IMG/VR virus record: IMGVR_UViG_3300029064_000011
DNA length: 13,214 nt
Direction: 5' to 3' (one strand)
Origin: a virus
Lineage: Duplodnaviria; Heunggongvirae; Uroviricota; Caudoviricetes
The first letter of the stretch is position 1, and the number at the start of each line of letters is the position of its first letter. Position numbers and translations under genes: made by a program. The notes below the pieces were generated by a model. It had not been told where the DNA came from, ran no database searches, and saw only the letters and a list, made by a program, of their open reading frames with translations. Positions 6,497 through 13,214 of this stretch are shown in pieces.

Positions 6497-6543
6497 ATTT
6501 ATTTTTACCCCCTCGTTTAAAAAGTTTTGAGTTGTGCCTCCCC

Positions 6544-6772
6544 TTGTCTACCTTATCTACCTTAGTGGCCCTCATACCAGTAATGGCGCGGCTTTCAGCG
6601 GGGTAGAGTGCTTTTATCCACTATCTACCCCGTGTCTACCTCCCTGTCTGATTCAGGTAAAATCAGGTAGAGAGGGTAGATAGTGGGTAGACAGTAAAAA
6701 AAGGTTATCTACCTAACTTAATGCACTGAATTAAATGTATTTTTCTTTACTCAGGTAGACAGGGTAGACAGC
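6544..6772. repeat. Iteron array, putative replication origin
   Basis: At least 11 copies of GGTAGA(C/T)AG or its complement in both orientations (for example 6545-6552, 6554-6561, 6622-6629, 6632-6640, 6666-6672, 6674-6681, 6685-6693, 6705-6712, 6754-6762, 6764-6772), with an AT-rich stretch at 6693-6750. Lies immediately 3' of the primase-helicase gene. Confidence 0.7.
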
Positions 6773-6784
6773 AATTACAAAAAA

Positions 6785-8539
6785 TTATAAAAACGCGTCG
6801 CACTCGTCTGTTGTTATTGCGTTAGTCTGCGTTACTCCCTTAACTTTCCGCGTAATATATTCATGTCCGTAAACTTTCGCGGCTGGCTTCATAGCCTTGC
6901 CAAAGTCATTTACGTTTAGCGGTTTGCTCCTGCCTGCGTACGCCATAAACGCCAGATAGACGCGGTAAAGGCTGTTTCTGGTCGTGTACTTCACTGAATC
7001 GCCACCGCCGCCCATCATCAGGCCGCGTGCTTCCTCCAGAAAATTCAGGAACTGGCAAAACTCAATAACCGGATCCGTCTGTTGCTTTATTGCCAGAGCT
7101 TCATCACCGTCACGCTGTTCCAGTAGTAAAGCCCGTGCCTTCTCAGGGTCGGTAAAGTTCGCCAGCAATCGGCGGATAATGACAGGGATTTCAGCCGCGA
7201 TCTTTTCCGGTAGCTCCCTGTCTTTTTCGGCCTCACTGACGATATTGTCGAAACGGAAAATCACGCGACGACGTGCCACACCTCCGGCCCGTTCGGTGAA
7301 TATCATCGGGTTATTGTTGGTCGCCAGCACCACCGCCCTGATTACCGCCGTGAAACGCTTTTCGTATTTCGGGTTAATTTCCACGGGGTCACCGCCCGTG
7401 ATTTTCTTGATGCCCGTTCCTTCGCCTGTATATTTCGGCTGGTCAGCCAGGACGATAAGACGACTCCCGACAACCTGCGCACGTCCACCAGCATCATCAA
7501 GCGATGTCATTTCAGCGCTTACCGTGTTCTGTTTCCCTGCCAGAAGGCTAGCTATGTGTGTGAATGTACTTTTACCGCTCCCGCCGTCTCCGGTGGCCTC
7601 AATAAACATCTGCCAGTCGTACCGGTTCGCCATAATCATGTACAGCGCGGCACATATACGCATCATCTTGCGCGGGTCTTTTCCGGCTGCGTGCTCAAGC
7701 CATTTATGAAAGTTTGGCGCGTTATCGCGGATGTTCTCCCCTGGTGCTGGTGGCGTGTACTCAATGCCGTTGTGCGTGGTGATCCAGTTCTCCGGCGTGT
7801 GCGGGGAAAATTCCCCCGTTTTCAGGTCAAGCGCACCATTGGCGAACGGCAACAAATCGCCGGACGGCTCGCCCATTGGTTCGGCAATAACTTTTAACGC
7901 TTCCACGGCGTTATTGATTACGCGCTTGCTGAAAGTGGCCCTGTGCTCTGAATAGATCGCCACCATTTCGCGGCTAAGTTCCATTGTGCTGACCGGACAC
8001 CATACCCCGCCGCGCCATACGTGAACGATTTCACTTTCAGGATGTACGCAAACGCCATCAAAGCGATCGGCAAGCAGCTGCGCGCGCTCACTGTCCGCCA
8101 TCTGCGAAAGTTGCGCCTTTTGCTTTACCGGAAGCTCAATGACCAGACCATCAGAAAGATTCTGGCGCTCACGGGCCAGATATTCGCGCCAGTTCTCCAC
8201 CTTCTGACCGTGCATACCATCAGGGTAAAAATTTGCATCCTGTACGCCTGCCGCCGCCAGCTTCTGACCAATCGCCTTTATCATTACTGGCGCAAGATAT
8301 CCGGCCCTGAATATGCGCACGGATTTTCTGCCTTCCGGCACAATTTGCAGCTTATCCAGTTCGGATAACTGCTGCTCCCCAAGCCACACAGGAGTCTCAT
8401 TATCTCCGGCCATACGCGCGTCATGTTCCTGCCATTGTTTTGCGTGTGACCAGGCATCACTACCCGCAAAAATAATGACTTCTGTTTCTTTGTGTTTTAT
8501 GCCGCGTGACTGCTGTTTTACGTTCGGTGCCAGTTTCAT
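6785..8539 (-). CDS. Primase-helicase replication initiator (P4-family phage/plasmid primase C-terminal domain with D5-like NTPase), 584 aa
   Basis: Walker A TGDGGSGKST and Walker B-like RLIVLADQ in the C-terminal half. Domain order and size are typical of satellite pri-rep proteins. Origin iterons directly downstream. Start overlaps the upstream 99-aa ORF. Confidence 0.88.
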   Translation of the reverse strand: MKLAPNVKQQSRGIKHKETEVIIFAGSDAWSHAKQWQEHDARMAGDNETPVWLGEQQLSELDKLQIVPEGRKSVRIFRAGYLAPVMIKAIGQKLAAAGVQDANFYPDGMHGQKVENWREYLARERQNLSDGLVIELPVKQKAQLSQMADSERAQLLADRFDGVCVHPESEIVHVWRGGVWCPVSTMELSREMVAIYSEHRATFSKRVINNAVEALKVIAEPMGEPSGDLLPFANGALDLKTGEFSPHTPENWITTHNGIEYTPPAPGENIRDNAPNFHKWLEHAAGKDPRKMMRICAALYMIMANRYDWQMFIEATGDGGSGKSTFTHIASLLAGKQNTVSAEMTSLDDAGGRAQVVGSRLIVLADQPKYTGEGTGIKKITGGDPVEINPKYEKRFTAVIRAVVLATNNNPMIFTERAGGVARRRVIFRFDNIVSEAEKDRELPEKIAAEIPVIIRRLLANFTDPEKARALLLEQRDGDEALAIKQQTDPVIEFCQFLNFLEEARGLMMGGGGDSVKYTTRNSLYRVYLAFMAYAGRSKPLNVNDFGKAMKPAAKVYGHEYITRKVKGVTQTNAITTDECDAFL

Positions 8540-9658: not shown

Positions 9659-9875
9659 GGTGCACCTCCTGCACATCAGCCATGATAATTTTTCCGGCCT
9701 TATCCAGTGCCTGATCGGCTTTTAGCTGCACAAATGCTAAATAATGGAAGATGCATTCTGATTCTCTGGCTGCGTGTTTATGCGCCCTGTCAGCAATAAC
9801 AGAAATATCAATAAGCGCGTGCATCAGCGTAGTGAGCGCGGCGGCGGCTGCGTCCGGTGTGGTTTTATTGCACAT
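9651..9875 (-). CDS. Hypothetical protein, about 74 aa (internal start of ORF 9651..9929)
   Basis: GGAGGGG SD precedes the ATG at 9873-9875 (start MCNKTTPD...). The longer upstream extension lacks an SD. Confidence 0.4.
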   Translation of the reverse strand: MCNKTTPDAAAAALTTLMHALIDISVIADRAHKHAARESECIFHYLAFVQLKADQALDKAGKIIMADVQEVHHA

Positions 9876-10095
9876 GTACCCCTCCGCATTTTTTTTCGTT
9901 AGAAATAAGCGTTCTTCTTTCCTGTTCATCGCTCAGGAATACGCAGACCTCACCGCTAAGGCGTTTAAGTAAGCCGATGATTGCCCCTGATTCGCTGTCG
10001 GTCATCATGCCAGGGTAATCCTCTGCCAGTGCGCAAATAACTTCGATTTGGTGGGCGCGTTCTGCTGCCTGTTGTAGTGTGATTTCCTGGCTCAT
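9865..10095 (-). CDS. Hypothetical protein, 76 aa
   Basis: ORF with GGGGGTAGG SD. Its ATG overlaps the stop of the upstream 66-codon reading frame (ATGA). Confidence 0.45.
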   Translation of the reverse strand: MSQEITLQQAAERAHQIEVICALAEDYPGMMTDSESGAIIGLLKRLSGEVCVFLSDEQERRTLISNEKKCGGVHVQ

Positions 10096-10292
10096 AAGCC
10101 TACCCCCTGACGAATACGGGCAGCAAATACCATCACGCAGCCAGCCGGAGATTGCTGGCGTGCTTCCTGTTCGCTGGTGGCCTCAATGGTAATCACGCGC
10201 GGTTGTGCCGTGCTCAGGGCGATAAAACGCCAGATGTATTTATTCAGGTTGTGCGAGTCCCGCCCTTGCGGGTGTGTGGTATGATTTCTCAT
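10092..10292 (-). CDS. Hypothetical protein, 66 aa, candidate first gene of the leftward operon
   Basis: ATG at 10290-10292 preceded by GAGGTAG. Stop overlaps the start of the 76-aa gene. This is the C-terminal in-frame part of the 428-codon ORF 10092..11378. Starts about 95 bp from the operator cluster. Confidence 0.4.
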   Translation of the reverse strand: MRNHTTHPQGRDSHNLNKYIWRFIALSTAQPRVITIEATSEQEARQQSPAGCVMVFAARIRQGVGL

Positions 10293-11378
10293 AGCTACCT
10301 CGATACTTTCGCTATCGTTGGTGGTTAGAAGCCCGGTTAGTGTTAGCGCACTGCCGGGTTTCGTCGTTTCTGCACCTTGCGCCAACAAGGTGTTGAACAC
10401 CAATTTAAACCCAGGTGTTAAACACGTCAAGTGTTGAACACTTATTTTTTTTCCTGCATACTGCATTTGTTTTTTATGAGGGGTACACCACATGGCGACA
10501 AAAGCGGTAAACGCAAAATCACAAACCGTTGCGGCAAGGGTTCCGCATGAAGTTATGAACAATGTTGAGGCGGTAAAAATGCCTGGCGAAAGTACGGGGC
10601 AATTTGTTACTGCGGCATTAAAACGAGAAGTTGAATATCGCCAGCGGCGCAAGGCCAAAGAACCAGAGTAATCACCATCAGCGCCGTGGTGTAAGGTATT
10701 ACGGCGCATTGCTATGCAGGACAACACAATGACCGATAAAGAATTGACCAAAACATTATCACCGGCACGGAAAAGACGGCGCAGAAAGATAGAGCATGAA
10801 TCAGAAAGATTCGCGCCATGTGCTTTTGCCCTTGAGCAATTCCTTAAAGAGTACAGGGAAAAGCGCTCATTGCAGGTATGGCAACGAACTGAACCAGACT
10901 GATTGCATTGCCCACCAGCCGCAAATGTGGCATTGTTGGCAATGCTCATGCGTTGGGGATAACGTGTAGCTTGTGTCGAGGGGCCACCGTAGCGGGTGGC
11001 CTTTGTTTTGCCCGTTATTCGGCAATTGTGGCGCTTCTCCACATGGTTGATATAATCCCACTGCTCAGATTCATTTTTTGCGCAGTAGGTTAATTGTTCA
11101 CAAAGGCGCTCCGGCAACGGGGCGCTTTTTGTTTTTATTAGTTTGTAGAAACCTGACTCAGAGATAATGCTCATATTCTGATTGCCGTCAGGGGTGTAAG
11201 TTAAATTTACTCCCTTTTTATCATCAAACATCTGCAACGCTCTGGCGTTAACAATATTGGTTTCACTCCCGCCAGTAAGGCCGGAAATAACCGGAATAAT
11301 TTCGGCAAAATTTTGCAGATTCTGTTTTTCAGGACGAACGAAGCCCCGCCCTTGTTCGGGAGAATATCCAGTATTCAT
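10092..11378 (-). CDS. 428-codon ORF, probably not one real gene; N-terminal roughly 115 codons resemble a BRO-N/antirepressor-like domain, the middle overlaps the + strand RHH cassette
   Basis: N-terminal part contains ISESGFYKLIKTKSAP, reminiscent of the BRO-N motif I-E-G-LY-LI-S-P. The rest has skewed Cys/Ser/Thr-rich composition and runs antisense through operators, the RHH gene and two + strand terminators. Weak SD at the 11378 ATG. Confidence 0.25.
   Translation of the reverse strand: MNTGYSPEQGRGFVRPEKQNLQNFAEIIPVISGLTGGSETNIVNARALQMFDDKKGVNLTYTPDGNQNMSIISESGFYKLIKTKSAPLPERLCEQLTYCAKNESEQWDYINHVEKRHNCRITGKTKATRYGGPSTQATRYPQRMSIANNATFAAGGQCNQSGSVRCHTCNERFSLYSLRNCSRAKAHGANLSDSCSIFLRRLFRAGDNVLVNSLSVIVLSCIAMRRNTLHHGADGDYSGSLALRRWRYSTSRFNAAVTNCPVLSPGIFTASTLFITSCGTLAATVCDFAFTAFVAMWCTPHKKQMQYAGKKISVQHLTCLTPGFKLVFNTLLAQGAETTKPGSALTLTGLLTTNDSESIEVAMRNHTTHPQGRDSHNLNKYIWRFIALSTAQPRVITIEATSEQEARQQSPAGCVMVFAARIRQGVGL
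10388..10442. promoter_or_regulatory. Three palindromic operator-like sites in a divergent promoter region
   Basis: GGTGTT-G-AACACC (10388-10400), GTGTT-A-AACAC (10414-10424) and AAGTGTT-G-AACACTT (10428-10442). The third overlaps a candidate rightward promoter: -35 TTGAAC (10433-10438), 17-nt spacer, -10 CATACT (10456-10461). Confidence 0.6.
10491..10670 (+). CDS. Ribbon-helix-helix (Arc/CopG-like) DNA-binding protein, 59 aa
   Basis: Not in the ORF track because it is under 60 aa; translated by hand as MATKAVNAKSQTVAARVPHEVMNNVEAVKMPGESTGQFVTAALKREVEYRQRRKAKEPE. The N-terminal strand-like RVPHEV followed by two helices is the classic RHH pattern. GAGGGG SD. The operator cluster lies immediately upstream. 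Confidence 0.6.
10714..10902 (+). CDS. Small, very basic hypothetical protein (58-62 aa), second gene of the + strand cassette
   Basis: ORF track entry 10714..10902. An AGGA SD favours the second ATG at 10729 (MTDKELTK...). Contains an RKRRRRK tract. Followed by an intrinsic terminator. Confidence 0.4.
   Translation: MQDNTMTDKELTKTLSPARKRRRRKIEHESERFAPCAFALEQFLKEYREKRSLQVWQRTEPD
10982..11009 (+). terminator. Rho-independent terminator of the + strand RHH cassette
   Basis: GGCCACC-gtagcg-GGTGGCC hairpin (10982-11001) followed by TTTGTTTT. Confidence 0.55.
11106..11136 (+). terminator. Second + strand rho-independent terminator
   Basis: GCGCTCCG-GCAA-CGGGGCGC hairpin (8 bp including one G-U pair, GNRA-like tetraloop) followed by TTTTTGTTTTT. 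Confidence 0.55.
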
Positions 11379-11430
11379 GGTTAGATCTCTGTATTAGTGG
11401 ATGGGTGGCGGCTGTGTGCCGCCAGCCTGA

Positions 11431-11619
11431 TTAGTGAACTGCCTCGCAGCTGTCCTTCCATGCCAGAACTTCGGATAAAGACCAGCCAACGGAACGACCG
11501 CCCAGCTTACGCCGTGATGGGAATTGTCCGGCTTTTTCCAGGCGGTACCGACATGAGCGGCTCAGGCCTGTAAGTTGCTGACATTCTTTTTCACGTATAA
11601 AGCGATCTGTGCTTAACAC
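11431..11619 (-). CDS. alpA: AlpA-family transcriptional regulator (excisionase-like HTH), 62 aa, GTG start
   Basis: Pattern LTGLSRSCRYRLEKAGQFPSRRKLGGRSVGWSLSEVLAW fits the Phage_AlpA family (TG-SR-T-Y, FP-P-LG-RSVGW, E-W). AAGGGGGAA SD 4-5 nt upstream of the GTG. Positioned next to the integrase as in PICIs and P4-like islands. Confidence 0.8.
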   Translation of the reverse strand: MLSTDRFIREKECQQLTGLSRSCRYRLEKAGQFPSRRKLGGRSVGWSLSEVLAWKDSCEAVH

Positions 11620-11900
11620 AATTCCCCCTTTGTTGTTTCTTAAAGAGTCATTGGGTGGATTATTGGGTTGGGTTGTGTCGGATTGTGTCAGGGTGTTTGT
11701 GGAATGGCAAACACTGGCGGCGGTCGTTTTACAGAAGCAGGGGGAATGAGAATAAAAACTCTTTTAATTCATTATGATGCAAAGGCATAAAATTTTACTT
11801 TTACGCCTTTTTTACATATTTTTAAGAGTGATTCGCCAGTGTATAAAAAAACAGTACACCTATAAAAATCAAATGGTTATTACGATGGCTGATTTTTAAC

Positions 11901-11984: not shown

Positions 11985-13214
11985 TTATATTTCTCTGGCT
12001 ATTGGCAATGTGGTTACGTTTTCATGTGTTCCCGCCAGTATCCCTAACCGCTCCGTCCACATATCCAGCGCGTCACGTTTCGCATCCAGATAACGGGAAT
12101 GGTTATAGACTCGTTGCATCCCTGGCATCTGATGACCTGTAAGCTGCTCCACGACGTGAGGATCCACGCCTAAATCGTTCAGCATCGTTGTAAAGGTGCG
12201 CCGGATGTCATGCAGTGACCAGTGAGGGTGTTTTAGCCTCCTGTGCGCTAATCTGCCGTACTGCGACACGCTTGTTTCCTGTTTCACTTCCCCCAGCAAT
12301 AAGCCCGTGTGCCTGTTCTGCTCCACCAGCTGCGTGACGAACGGCAGTATTGCTTCCGGTATGGGCCGGAATATTGCCACCTTCGTTTTGCTGTGTTCTT
12401 TCGGCACGGTCCAGAGCATTTCGGTAAAATCCCACTCGCTGATCTCCGATAACCTCAGTTCTACCGTCCGGCATCCGAAAACAATCAGGAGGCGGATTAG
12501 TGCGACGTAGTAAGGGGAAAATATTTTTTTGTCCAGTGCCTGCAATAATTCGCCAAGTTCTTTGGTGCTTAAGACACGCTCGCTTATATCCGGTTTTTTC
12601 CCAACGTCCGCCACACTCATATCATCAAGAACGTTGCTGATTGCATAGCGCCGCCTCCGGCAGAACTTAAGCGCCTGTTTGCACGTCTGTAGCAAGAATC
12701 CGGCAGTAACAGGCGTTCGCTTTGCCACCTGGTCAAAACAGGCCAGCCAGTGCCGTAGCTCGCATTTATCCAGCGGCATAGCACCAATGTGCTGTATTAC
12801 GTGATTATTAAGGCGCTTTTTCAGGGCGGCATAATCCACGCGGTTTTCCTTTACGTAAGACTCAAGCCAGTAGGTAAGCGCATCGCCAACCGTTACGGGC
12901 TTTAACGCTTTCTGTACGGTGTAATTCATCTCATGACGTGGATTTTTCCCCTCAGCAAGCCAAGCGCGACACTGTGCCGCTTTTTCCCTGGCAGCTTTCA
13001 GACTCAGATCAGGATAATTTCCCAGCTTAATCCGTTCCGGTCGTGCTCCCCTTCCCGTTCCGGCCCTGTAGGTGAAATACCAGGTTAAAAGGCCGCTGGT
13101 TGAATGCCTGACGCTCAGGTTTCCACCGTCATTAAGAAAGGCTGTTTTTTGGGCGGGTGTGCCGTTGATTTTCCTCAGCTGTGTATCGCTCAGTTTGTTA
13201 AGTGCTCTGCTCAT
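11985..13214 (-). CDS. int: Tyrosine recombinase, P4-type integrase, 409 aa; start codon at the last window base
   Basis: N-terminal arm-binding domain pattern (LSDTQLRK, NDGGNLSV, WYFTYR, LGNYPDLSLKAAREK) typical of P4-like integrases. C-terminal catalytic motifs HDIRRTF and RVYNHSRY. The N-terminal pattern suggests the ATG at 13212-13214 is the true start. Confidence 0.93.
   Translation of the reverse strand: MSRALNKLSDTQLRKINGTPAQKTAFLNDGGNLSVRHSTSGLLTWYFTYRAGTGRGARPERIKLGNYPDLSLKAAREKAAQCRAWLAEGKNPRHEMNYTVQKALKPVTVGDALTYWLESYVKENRVDYAALKKRLNNHVIQHIGAMPLDKCELRHWLACFDQVAKRTPVTAGFLLQTCKQALKFCRRRRYAISNVLDDMSVADVGKKPDISERVLSTKELGELLQALDKKIFSPYYVALIRLLIVFGCRTVELRLSEISEWDFTEMLWTVPKEHSKTKVAIFRPIPEAILPFVTQLVEQNRHTGLLLGEVKQETSVSQYGRLAHRRLKHPHWSLHDIRRTFTTMLNDLGVDPHVVEQLTGHQMPGMQRVYNHSRYLDAKRDALDMWTERLGILAGTHENVTTLPIAREI

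What the first reader, a model, noticed from the sequence alone, without database searches (positions are those of the whole stretch)
10092..10500. Divergent promoter region with three palindromic operators, reminiscent of a phage genetic switch
Three perfect palindromes built on GTGTT-N-AACAC lie between the rightward RHH gene (10491) and the leftward operon of small genes, primase and SSB. The third overlaps the -35 of the RHH promoter. This is the layout of a repressor that autoregulates and gates the replication operon, a role usually ascribed to Stl-like repressors in Gram-positive islands and not well described for enterobacterial PICIs.
Basis: partly seen in the sequence, partly recalled or inferred. 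Interest (0 to 1): 0.7.

Follow-up and report, generated by a model that had tools for sequence, protein, structure and literature searches.

The report
Swappable repressor-operator switch in E. coli satellite
The three palindromes are real and are most likely the binding sites of the small ribbon-helix-helix protein encoded next to them, a previously unrecognised repressor-operator cassette, also present in the prototype Gram-negative phage satellite EcCICFT073, that sits on the promoter of the satellite's replication operon, next to an overlooked antisense RNA.

Summary
GTGTT-N-AACAC occurs three times exactly (10390-10400, 10415-10425, 10431-10441), far above chance.

The window is a close relative of the prototype Gram-negative PICI EcCICFT073, at the same phoQ/roxA site.

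The sites lie on a strong, position-conserved leftward sigma-70-like promoter for icd-like, small genes, primase and SSB. One site is in the spacer and one is at the start site. The third covers the -35 of the promoter of the 59-aa YlcI/YnfO protein.

That protein's model matches only RHH folds. Its only hypervariable stretch is the predicted DNA-reading strand (residues 11-15).

Across about 40 loci from 13 genera, every strand variant has its own GTG-N5-CAC site at the same positions, giving at least 12 classes. The window and EcCICFT073 are about 100% identical on both sides and differ only in a 360-bp block of operators plus RHH. AlpA is identical in both, so AlpA is not the binder.

It is SymR-like and covers the icd-like ribosome-binding site.

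Binding and repression are inferred, not shown. The mechanism is a known kind, close to P22 immI. It answers an open question about Gram-negative PICI repression.

The parts
10390..10400 (.). Operator O1, GTGTTGAACAC. It lies directly downstream of the leftward -10 and covers the predicted leftward transcription start (about 10395).
   Evidence: A site occurs at the same position (-102 from the RHH ATG) in nearly all relatives.
10415..10425 (.). Operator O2, GTGTTAAACAC. It lies in the spacer of the leftward promoter and abuts or overlaps its -35 by one base.
   Evidence: The position (-77) is conserved in relatives.
10431..10441 (.). Operator O3, GTGTTGAACAC. It contains the rightward -35 (TTGAAC, 10434-10439) and lies just upstream of the leftward -35.
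   Evidence: This extra site at -61 is specific to the QT[VIL]AA class (window, L003, L004, L009, L011, L047, L048).
10402..10430 (-). Leftward promoter P_L: -35 TTGACG (10430-10425), 17-bp spacer, -10 TAAATT (10407-10402). It drives icd-like, the small genes, DUF4222, primase and SSB.
   Evidence: 9/12 match. A TTGAnn -35 at the same position with a TAnnnT -10 17-18 bp further on occurs in 29 of 30 distinct loci.
10434..10462 (+). Rightward promoter P_R of the RHH operon: TTGAAC, 17-bp spacer, CATACT.
   Evidence: Read from the sequence, 8/12 match. A (C/T)ATACT -10 ending at about -31 is visible in most relatives. Weak consensus-level evidence only.
10492..10671 (+). 59-aa YlcI/YnfO-family protein, predicted RHH repressor. 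SD GAGGGG at 10478-10483. Specificity strand residues 11-15 are QTVAA.
10714..10902 (+). Second gene of the rightward operon (62 aa, or 57 aa from the ATG at 10729), basic, function unknown. It is followed by a + strand terminator, GGCCACC-GTAGCG-GGTGGCC-TTTGTTTT, at 10982-11009.
   Evidence: phrog_21027. Identical in EcCICFT073. The terminator was read from the sequence.
10092..10292 (-). Icd-like gene (66 aa), first gene of the leftward operon. SD GAGG at 10301-10298.
   Evidence: NF033153, E 1.4e-19, confined to the last 48 residues. Called as 66 aa in EcCICFT073 and most relatives.
10293..10372 (+). SymR-like cis-antisense RNA, about 75-80 nt, complementary to the icd-like 5'UTR and SD. 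Helix 1: 10294-10299 with 10320-10325. Helix 2: 10302-10305 with 10313-10316. Terminator helix: 10328-10342 with 10349-10362. U-rich tail to about 10371.
   Evidence: Rfam symR, full-length match, 33.3 bits, E 1.4e-4, below the gathering score of 61. symR is also the best hit at the same place in 5 other loci, up to 45.6 bits. Consensus fold is -31.4 kcal/mol on the + strand against -7.8 on the - strand. 97.2% of cells are paired, 16 of 24 pairs are compensatory, and 0 of 500 shuffles reach this. There are 111 G-U cells, and the same columns read on the minus strand pair at only 82.2%.
10277..10285 (+). Candidate promoter of the antisense RNA: extended -10 TGgTATGAT inside icd-like codons 3-5, placing the start at about 10293.
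   Evidence: Read from the sequence. A TAnnnT hexamer at a fixed distance from the icd-like start codon occurs in all 27 distinct loci listed. No -35 was found.
10372..10393 (-). Small hairpin (arms 10372-10379 and 10386-10393) at the predicted 5' end of the P_L transcript, overlapping the left edge of O1.
   Evidence: It is present with different sequences in most relatives and is slightly more stable on the minus strand. Its function is not established.

Best explanation
The 59-aa YlcI/YnfO protein is a ribbon-helix-helix repressor, and the three GTGTT-N-AACAC repeats are its operators.

Each 11-bp site is probably read by one dimer. The invariant residues (S10, R16 and the N-terminal arm) would contact the conserved outer GTG/CAC. 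The variable strand residues (positions 12 and 14) would contact the central five bases.

Occupied O2 (promoter spacer) and O1 (start site) block RNA polymerase at the leftward promoter P_L. This keeps the icd-like, small-gene, primase and SSB operon silent in the resident island. O3, on the -35 of P_R, gives negative autoregulation.

A constitutive SymR-like antisense RNA, made from the opposite strand of the icd-like leader, is a second lock. It pairs with the ribosome-binding site of any leaky P_L transcript for the potentially toxic Icd-like protein.

The operator-plus-RHH block is a self-contained specificity cassette that recombines between islands, as immunity regions do in temperate phages.

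Shown here: the sites exist, their positions relative to the promoter consensus elements are conserved, protein and site co-vary, the cassette has been swapped, and the RNA structure has a clear strand bias.

Inferred: actual binding, the sign of regulation, one dimer per site, and how repression is lifted. Two routes are possible for the last: AlpA-driven transcription entering from upstream, or a helper-encoded antirepressor.
For: 1. Three exact copies against a chance expectation of 0.45; 0 of 300 shuffles reproduce this.
2. P_L scores 9/12, with O2 in the spacer and O1 at the start site. The same TTGAnn/TAnnnT promoter sits at the same position in 29 of 30 loci.
4. Each strand class has its own site, at about -102, -77 and -31:
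- QT[VIL]AA: GTGTTGAACAC
- QS[VL]TA: GTGTCTTACAC
- Q[SA]LK[SA]: GTGTGGCCCAC
- [KR]KLEA: GTGTCAGCCAC
- QK[LV]Q[AT]: GTGGACTCCAC
- QKMSA: CTGGCACCCA
- QKIQA: CTGGATTCCAG
- KRFDV: GTGTCGGACAC
- KKIDV: GTGTCTGACAC
- QALRA: GTGTAGACCAC

5. The same class in distant genera keeps the same site. The Klebsiella RHH is 64% identical to the window's. KRFDV has the same site in Pectobacterium and in Salmonella, although in Salmonella the neighbouring gene is a KilA-N gene.
6. The window and EcCICFT073 are about 100% identical at 9832-10330 and 10699-11720 but 47-77% identical at 10335-10698, which is exactly the operators plus the RHH gene.
7. icd-like through primase are packed without gaps on one strand, and no terminator signal above chance was found.
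Against: - No binding or expression data exist.
- No Pfam RHH family and no solved structure is matched by sequence.
- The AF2 monomer does not form the N-terminal strand.
- The P_R prediction is weak (8/12, poor -35 in most relatives).
- Published work shows that AlpA overexpression alone induces EcCICFT073 (PMC6092414). RHH repression must therefore be bypassable, and the protein may be a local brake rather than the master repressor.
- Loci are phylogenetically related, so class counts are not fully independent events.
Confidence: 0.75

Rival explanations
1. The repeats are binding sites for AlpA, the known activator of Gram-negative PICIs, which would switch on the leftward operon from here.
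For: AlpA is the only experimentally supported regulator of EcCICFT073 (PMC6092414). A 1-mismatch copy of the motif overlaps the alpA start codon at 11609-11619.
Against: AlpA is 100% identical in the window and in EcCICFT073, yet their repeats differ (GTGTTGAACAC against GTGTGGCCCAC). The repeats track the RHH strand residues instead. The sites occupy the spacer and start site, which are repressor positions.
Confidence: 0.03
2. The repeats are iterons, or a centromere- or packaging-type array. They would be bound by the replication protein, or by the RHH acting as a ParG/omega-like centromere protein, rather than being transcriptional operators.
Against: L007 and L008 share identical sites but encode different replication proteins, a RepA helicase and a P4-family primase. 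The sites keep a fixed register with the -35 and -10 elements in 29 of 30 loci. No partition ATPase is annotated in the islands.
Confidence: 0.05
3. The region is coding. It would be the N-terminal part of a 133-aa (PGAP) or even 428-aa minus-strand Icd-like protein, making the palindromes incidental.
For: The minus-strand frame is open from 11378 to 10092. PGAP annotates a 133-aa Icd-like CDS covering 10092-10493 in identical sequence.
Against: The Icd-like profile matches only the last 48 residues. A GAGG Shine-Dalgarno sequence precedes the ATG at 10292. The extension is not conserved: 66 aa in EcCICFT073, 72 aa in L009 and 134 aa in L003. The region evolves by operator replacement and indels, not as codons. 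The open frame over the + strand genes is the wobble-aligned shadow frame (inference from coordinates).
Confidence: 0.02
4. The RHH does bind these sites, but as an activator or Cro-like late-acting factor, or as a roadblock to AlpA-driven read-through transcription. It would not be the resident-state repressor of P_L.
For: The sign of regulation is not measured. P22 Mnt both represses and activates from one site (own knowledge). AlpA-driven transcription from upstream would have to cross this region, since the operon layout is the same strand for alpA, the BRO remnant and icd-like.
Against: Sites inside the spacer and on the start site of P_L, and on the -35 or +1 of P_R, are classic repression geometry. 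The RHH promoter carries its own site in every class.
Confidence: 0.12

Closest known systems
Phage P22 immI region (Mnt and Arc RHH repressors, divergent Pant/Pmnt, sar antisense RNA); own knowledge
   Same: Small RHH repressor(s). Operators lie within two back-to-back overlapping promoters. The repressor regulates itself. A short antisense RNA pairs with the ribosome-binding site of the first gene of the repressed operon.
   Different: No detectable sequence similarity to Arc or Mnt. There is one RHH gene rather than two. Sites are 11-bp GTG-N5-CAC units repeated three to five times, rather than single 17-21-bp operators. The controlled operon is a satellite replication module, not an antirepressor. 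The antisense RNA resembles SymR, not sar.
Phage P1/P7 immI (c4 antisense RNA, icd, ant); own knowledge
   Same: The first gene of the controlled operon is an Icd-family cell-division inhibitor (NF033153), and its translation is the apparent target of a small RNA.
   Different: c4 is a trans-acting RNA processed from the same transcript, whereas this RNA is a true cis-antisense RNA from the opposite strand. No Rfam C4 match was found. P1 immI has no RHH.
Stl/Rpr master repressors of Gram-positive PICIs (SaPIs); PMC6092414
   Same: The position and logic match: a repressor gene divergent from the replication operon, next to int, in a phage satellite.
   Different: No homology to HTH repressors was detected; the only similarities found are to the YlcI/YnfO family and to RHH folds. 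Whether a helper protein lifts repression is unknown. In these islands the activator AlpA is also required.
SymE-SymR type I toxin-antitoxin of E. coli (Rfam RF01809)
   Same: The RNA starts next to or over the target's start codon on the opposite strand. It has a two-domain fold with a 5' hairpin and a terminator hairpin. The sequences resemble each other (AGCCAU.. / ..UGUGGUUAGA..). There is a full-length model match.
   Different: Scores of 32-46 bits are below the gathering score of 61. The target is an Icd-like gene in a satellite, not symE.
Immunity-region mosaicism of lambdoid phages (repressor plus operators exchanged as a unit); own knowledge
   Same: A 360-bp repressor-operator block differs between otherwise identical elements, and there are many specificity classes.
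   Different: The repressor is a 59-aa RHH, not a CI-type HTH protein. The element is a satellite. No evidence yet shows that the classes confer immunity or exclusion.

Membership tests
Ribbon-helix-helix (MetJ/Arc/CopG) superfamily | Compact helix-loop-helix core of about 45 residues that superposes on solved RHH domains | tested here: met
Ribbon-helix-helix (MetJ/Arc/CopG) superfamily | N-terminal beta-strand that pairs with the strand of a second subunit to form the DNA-reading ribbon | not testable with these tools
   Only single chains can be predicted. In the monomer model, residues 11-17 are not a strand and have pLDDT of 60-69.
Ribbon-helix-helix (MetJ/Arc/CopG) superfamily | G-x-S/T/N turn between the two helices (own knowledge of the family signature) | tested here: met
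   G32-E33-S34 are invariant and T35 is nearly invariant in 33 homologues.
Ribbon-helix-helix (MetJ/Arc/CopG) superfamily | DNA specificity set by side chains of the N-terminal strand | tested here: met
   This is indirect evidence. Residues 11-15 are the variable stretch of the core, and each variant has its own repeated site.
Ribbon-helix-helix (MetJ/Arc/CopG) superfamily | Match to a curated RHH sequence family (Pfam) or to a solved RHH by sequence | tested here: not met
   No Pfam family reaches its gathering score, and only faint hits were seen to the RHH-like families PSK_trans_fac and CB_ParB_C. The PDB profile search gave nothing relevant.
YlcI/YnfO family (NCBIfam NF041551) | Score above the curated cut-off | tested here: met
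   59.7 bits against a cut-off of 30, E 2.1e-16.
Gram-negative PICI of the EcCICFT073 type | int, alpA, primase/rep and capsid-redirecting late genes in one orientation, at a dedicated attachment site | tested here: met
   The window carries int, AlpA, a P4/D5-type primase, SSB, capsid, decoration protein and TerS next to phoQ. EcCICFT073 lies at the same site between roxA and phoQ. It is about 100% identical over the 1.9 kb compared, except for the cassette.
Stl/Rpr-type PICI master repressor | Homologous HTH repressor whose repression is lifted by a helper-phage protein | tested here: not met
   No HTH family was detected. The only family and fold similarities found are YlcI/YnfO and RHH. 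Derepression by a helper protein cannot be tested here.
SymR antisense RNA (Rfam RF01809) | Covariance-model score at or above the gathering score | tested here: not met
   33.3 bits in the window and at most 45.6 bits in relatives, against 61. The geometry, fold and strand are consistent with a SymR-like RNA.
P1-type immI (c4 RNA plus icd) | Icd-family first gene and a C4-family RNA upstream | tested here: not met
   The Icd-like domain is present, but there is no C4 or isrK match at any threshold used.

The most novel reading that the evidence does not exclude
The YlcI/YnfO RHH is the long-sought resident-state repressor of Gram-negative PICIs, including the prototype EcCICFT073, where the gene was absent from the original annotation.

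It exists in a dozen or more interchangeable specificity classes that define 'immunity groups' of satellites sharing one cell. Induction works by neutralising it, either by AlpA-driven convergent transcription across the RHH operon or by a helper antirepressor.

The accompanying SymR-like RNA would make the icd-like gene a type I toxin-antitoxin-style lock. It would also imply that the chromosomal symER locus descends from such a satellite module.
Probability: 0.3. Interest if true: 0.8.

Novelty: new member of a known kind. Interest (0 to 1): 0.66.

Why it matters
The paper that defined Gram-negative PICIs states that a global repressor in these elements is unclear and that only the activator AlpA is known (PMC6092414). 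Later papers held here list YlcI/YnfO and Icd merely as accessory genes (PMC13612085).

This analysis points to a specific 59-aa protein and specific 11-bp sites in EcCICFT073 itself: NC_004431.1 1380473-1380652 for the protein, with the sites in 1380653-1380851. The question can therefore be tested directly with a deletion, a reporter and a gel shift.

The natural set of at least 12 strand-to-site pairings is also a ready-made recognition table for RHH design. It gives a way to type satellites into regulatory groups.

Part of this 609-bp region matches in about a quarter of complete E. coli genomes (1342 of 5426). 427 genomes match over at least 80% of its length.

Tried and rejected
- Rfam at gathering thresholds found nothing in the window.
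- Pfam found nothing for the RHH, orf62 or the small leftward genes.
- tblastn against 50,697 phage records gave one weak hit, in a 16.5-kb 'induced prophage' that looks like a satellite. The protein is therefore not a common phage gene at this level of similarity.
- Five literature searches for an RHH or YlcI role in PICIs, for SymR with Icd, and for Icd-like genes in satellites found nothing relevant.
- The 428-aa minus-strand ORF and PGAP's 133-aa Icd-like model were considered and rejected as non-conserved extensions.
- The 1-mismatch motif at the alpA start (11609-11619) is probably chance. The same sequence is present in EcCICFT073, whose RHH belongs to another class.
- The terminator and promoter scan of the leftward operon gave only chance-level counts.
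- A sense-strand (leader) RNA structure was tested and rejected in favour of the antisense strand.
Full report
**What the window is**

Bases 1-1461 are phoQ. The rest is a phage satellite. On the minus strand it carries:
- int at 11985-13214;
- AlpA at 11431-11619;
- a BRO-N/Ant-like remnant starting at 11378;
- an Icd-like gene at 10092-10292;
- six small genes, including DUF4222;
- a D5/P4-type primase at 6785-8539;
- SSB, a major capsid protein, a decoration protein and TerS.

Two small genes run the other way, at 10492-10671 and 10714-10902.

The prototype Gram-negative PICI, EcCICFT073, sits at the same site between roxA and phoQ in strain CFT073 and has the same gene order. The window is a close relative of it.

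**The observation**

GTGTTGAACAC, GTGTTAAACAC and GTGTTGAACAC lie at 10390-10400, 10415-10425 and 10431-10441. With one mismatch allowed, the window has four matches against 0.45 expected. No shuffle of the upstream 125 bp produced three copies of any 11-mer (0 of 300).

**Promoters**

The consensus scan finds one leftward sigma-70-like promoter: TTGACG at 10430-10425, a 17-bp spacer, and TAAATT at 10407-10402. This puts O2 in the spacer, O1 on the predicted start site and O3 just upstream of the -35.

In 29 of 30 distinct related loci, a TTGAnn hexamer lies at exactly the same distance from the RHH start codon, with a TAnnnT hexamer 17-18 bp further on. This promoter is therefore conserved in position, not only in this window.

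The rightward promoter is weaker evidence. TTGAAC lies inside O3, 17 bp before CATACT (8/12, read). A (C/T)ATACT -10 at the same place is seen in most relatives.

The genes from icd-like to the primase abut or overlap on one strand. Scans show no terminator signal above chance. They form one operon downstream of P_L (inference).

**The protein**

The 59-aa product passes the NCBIfam YlcI/YnfO model (59.7 bits, cut-off 30). It matches no Pfam family and no solved structure by sequence.

**Who binds the repeats**

In the alignment of 33 homologues, the protein is nearly invariant from M1 to R16 and over the helices. The exception is residues 11-15, the predicted DNA-reading strand.

I collected about 40 loci from E. 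coli, Salmonella, Edwardsiella, Klebsiella, Kosakonia, Pectobacterium, Serratia, Yokenella, Dryocola, Limnobaculum, Tenebrionibacter, Proteus and Xenorhabdus. An unbiased search for the most repeated 11-mer upstream of each RHH gene returns a site of the form GTG-N5-CAC. It lies at about -102, -77 and -31 from the ATG. Its centre depends on the strand residues:

| Strand residues 11-15 | Repeated site |
|---|---|
| QT[VIL]AA | GTGTTGAACAC |
| QS[VL]TA | GTGTCTTACAC |
| Q[SA]LK[SA] | GTGTGGCCCAC |
| [KR]KLEA | GTGTCAGCCAC |
| QK[LV]Q[AT] | GTGGACTCCAC |
| QKMSA | CTGGCACCCA |
| QKIQA | CTGGATTCCAG |
| KRFDV | GTGTCGGACAC |
| KKIDV | GTGTCTGACAC |
| QALRA | GTGTAGACCAC |

The same class keeps the same site in distant hosts. 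Klebsiella proteins only 64% identical to the window's have GTGTT(G/A)AACAC at four or five positions. KRFDV proteins have GTGTCGGACAC both in Pectobacterium and in Salmonella, although in Salmonella the divergent neighbour is a KilA-N gene rather than icd-like.

**The natural experiment**

The window and EcCICFT073 are about 100% identical over 9832-10330 and 10699-11720. These stretches cover icd-like, orf62, the BRO remnant and AlpA. Identity falls to 47-77% over 10335-10698, which is exactly the operators plus the RHH gene. EcCICFT073 has a QALKA strand with GTGTGGCCCAC twice and CTGTCCCCCAC once.

Because AlpA is identical in the two islands, AlpA is not what reads these repeats. L007 and L008 share sites but have different replication proteins, so the repeats are not iterons. 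The RHH is the only gene inside the exchanged block.

- Palindromy is a property of this class only, because its centre TTGAA is itself symmetric. Most classes have asymmetric centres, and their sites are direct repeats.
- In most relatives the autoregulatory site lies immediately after the rightward -10. In the window's class an extra copy lies at the -35. The window has lost the site after the -10, which Kosakonia and Klebsiella relatives of the same class still have.

The 100 bp between the icd-like start codon and O1 are conserved more widely among E. coli satellites than any operator class. An Rfam scan at permissive thresholds gives a full-length match to SymR on the + strand at 10293-10365 (33.3 bits, E 1.4e-4, gathering score 61). 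SymR is the antisense antitoxin RNA of symE. symR is also the best hit at the same place in five other loci, with scores up to 45.6 bits.

Evidence from an alignment of 30 loci:
- The + strand folds into a 5' hairpin plus a terminator hairpin at -31.4 kcal/mol. The minus strand reaches only -7.8 kcal/mol.
- 97.2% of cells pair, and 16 of 24 pairs show compensatory changes. No shuffle of 500 reaches this, and slid controls pair at 36-50%.
- 111 cells are G-U pairs. The same columns read on the minus strand pair at only 82.2%.
- A TAnnnT hexamer lies at a fixed distance upstream in every locus. In the window it is TGgTATGAT at 10277-10285.

The RNA is therefore made from the strand opposite icd-like. 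It starts next to the icd-like start codon and covers its Shine-Dalgarno sequence. This is a second, post-transcriptional lock on the first gene of the operon. It parallels sar in P22 and c4 in P1 (own knowledge).

**Mechanism proposed**

RHH dimers made from P_R occupy O1 and O2 and shut P_L, and they limit their own synthesis through O3. The antisense RNA neutralises leaky icd-like message.

How the lock opens is not known. AlpA is necessary and sufficient for EcCICFT073 induction (PMC6092414). Either AlpA-driven transcription from upstream crosses the convergent RHH operon and enters the replication genes, or a helper product inactivates the RHH. Both are inferences.

**Comparison and novelty**

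The design is closest to P22 immI: RHH repressors on back-to-back promoters plus an antisense RNA. It shares the Icd-family first gene with P1 immI. Functionally it occupies the place of Stl in Gram-positive PICIs, without detectable homology.

The papers held here say that a repressor in Gram-negative PICIs is unclear. They describe the region between alpA and the replication genes as a 'Bro zone' with immunity RNAs (PMC10111431). They list YlcI/YnfO and Icd only as accessory genes. Searches for an RHH role found nothing.

The kind of mechanism is well known. Its presence, modularity and specificity classes in these satellites appear to be undescribed. I rate it a new member of a known kind, with above-average interest because it makes an explicit open question testable in the model island.

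**Caveats**

Noticed in passing
window 10293-10372 (+): A structured SymR-like antisense RNA gene opposite the icd-like 5'UTR and SD. It has a conserved TAnnnT -10 inside the icd-like coding start. It is not annotated in any of the RefSeq stretches fetched here.
   Followed up: yes
window 10092-11378 (-): A mechanical 428-codon open frame fuses the BRO-N remnant, the antisense of orf62 and the RHH gene, the operator region and icd-like. PGAP annotates a 133-aa 'Icd-like' protein (10092-10493) that covers the operators. The extension is not conserved in relatives (66, 72 and 134 aa), so it is likely an over-extended gene model.
   Followed up: yes
window 10372-10393: An 8-bp inverted repeat (CACCTTGC.. 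/ ..CAAGGTG region) overlaps the left edge of O1. An equivalent hairpin with different sequence is present in most relatives and is slightly more stable on the minus strand. It may be a 5'-terminal hairpin of the P_L transcript.
   Followed up: partly
window 11609-11619: A one-mismatch copy of the operator motif (GTGCTTAACAC) overlaps the GTG start codon of alpA. The same sequence is present in EcCICFT073, whose RHH has another specificity, so it is probably chance. If functional, it would link the RHH to alpA in this class only.
   Followed up: partly
window 10903-11378 (-) and 11102-11139 (+): The ORF after alpA has only a short BRO-N/Ant-like stretch (residues about 44-90), and RefSeq does not annotate it in CFT073. 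Inside it lies a strong + strand terminator-like hairpin followed by TTTTTGTTTTT. This is a second stop for the rightward RHH operon, after the one at 10982-11009.
   Followed up: no
L045/L046 (Salmonella read assemblies), about 575-877: The KRFDV-class RHH with its three GTGTCGGACAC sites is divergent from a 302-aa KilA-N protein. There is no icd-like gene and no SymR-like leader. The RHH-operator cassette is therefore used in other gene contexts.
   Followed up: partly
L047 (Klebsiella), 215 bp upstream of the RHH gene: There are five operator copies, because a 16-bp unit (GTGTTAAACACGTCAA) that includes the leftward -35 is duplicated.
   Followed up: no
L007/L008 (E. coli E2855, ATCC 25922), 1697-2002: In one class the RHH protein is 101 aa, with a C-terminal helical extension. 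No separate downstream small gene immediately follows it.
   Followed up: no
window 6497-6784: A 288-bp non-coding gap lies directly after the primase gene. It is a candidate replication origin and was not examined.
   Followed up: no
NC_004431.1 1380473-1381052 (L041 9474-10053): In CFT073 the RHH and icd-like genes carry high-numbered locus tags (C_RS30120, C_RS30125) among low-numbered neighbours. This suggests that they were added to the annotation later, which may explain why they do not figure in the published EcCICFT073 maps.
   Followed up: partly
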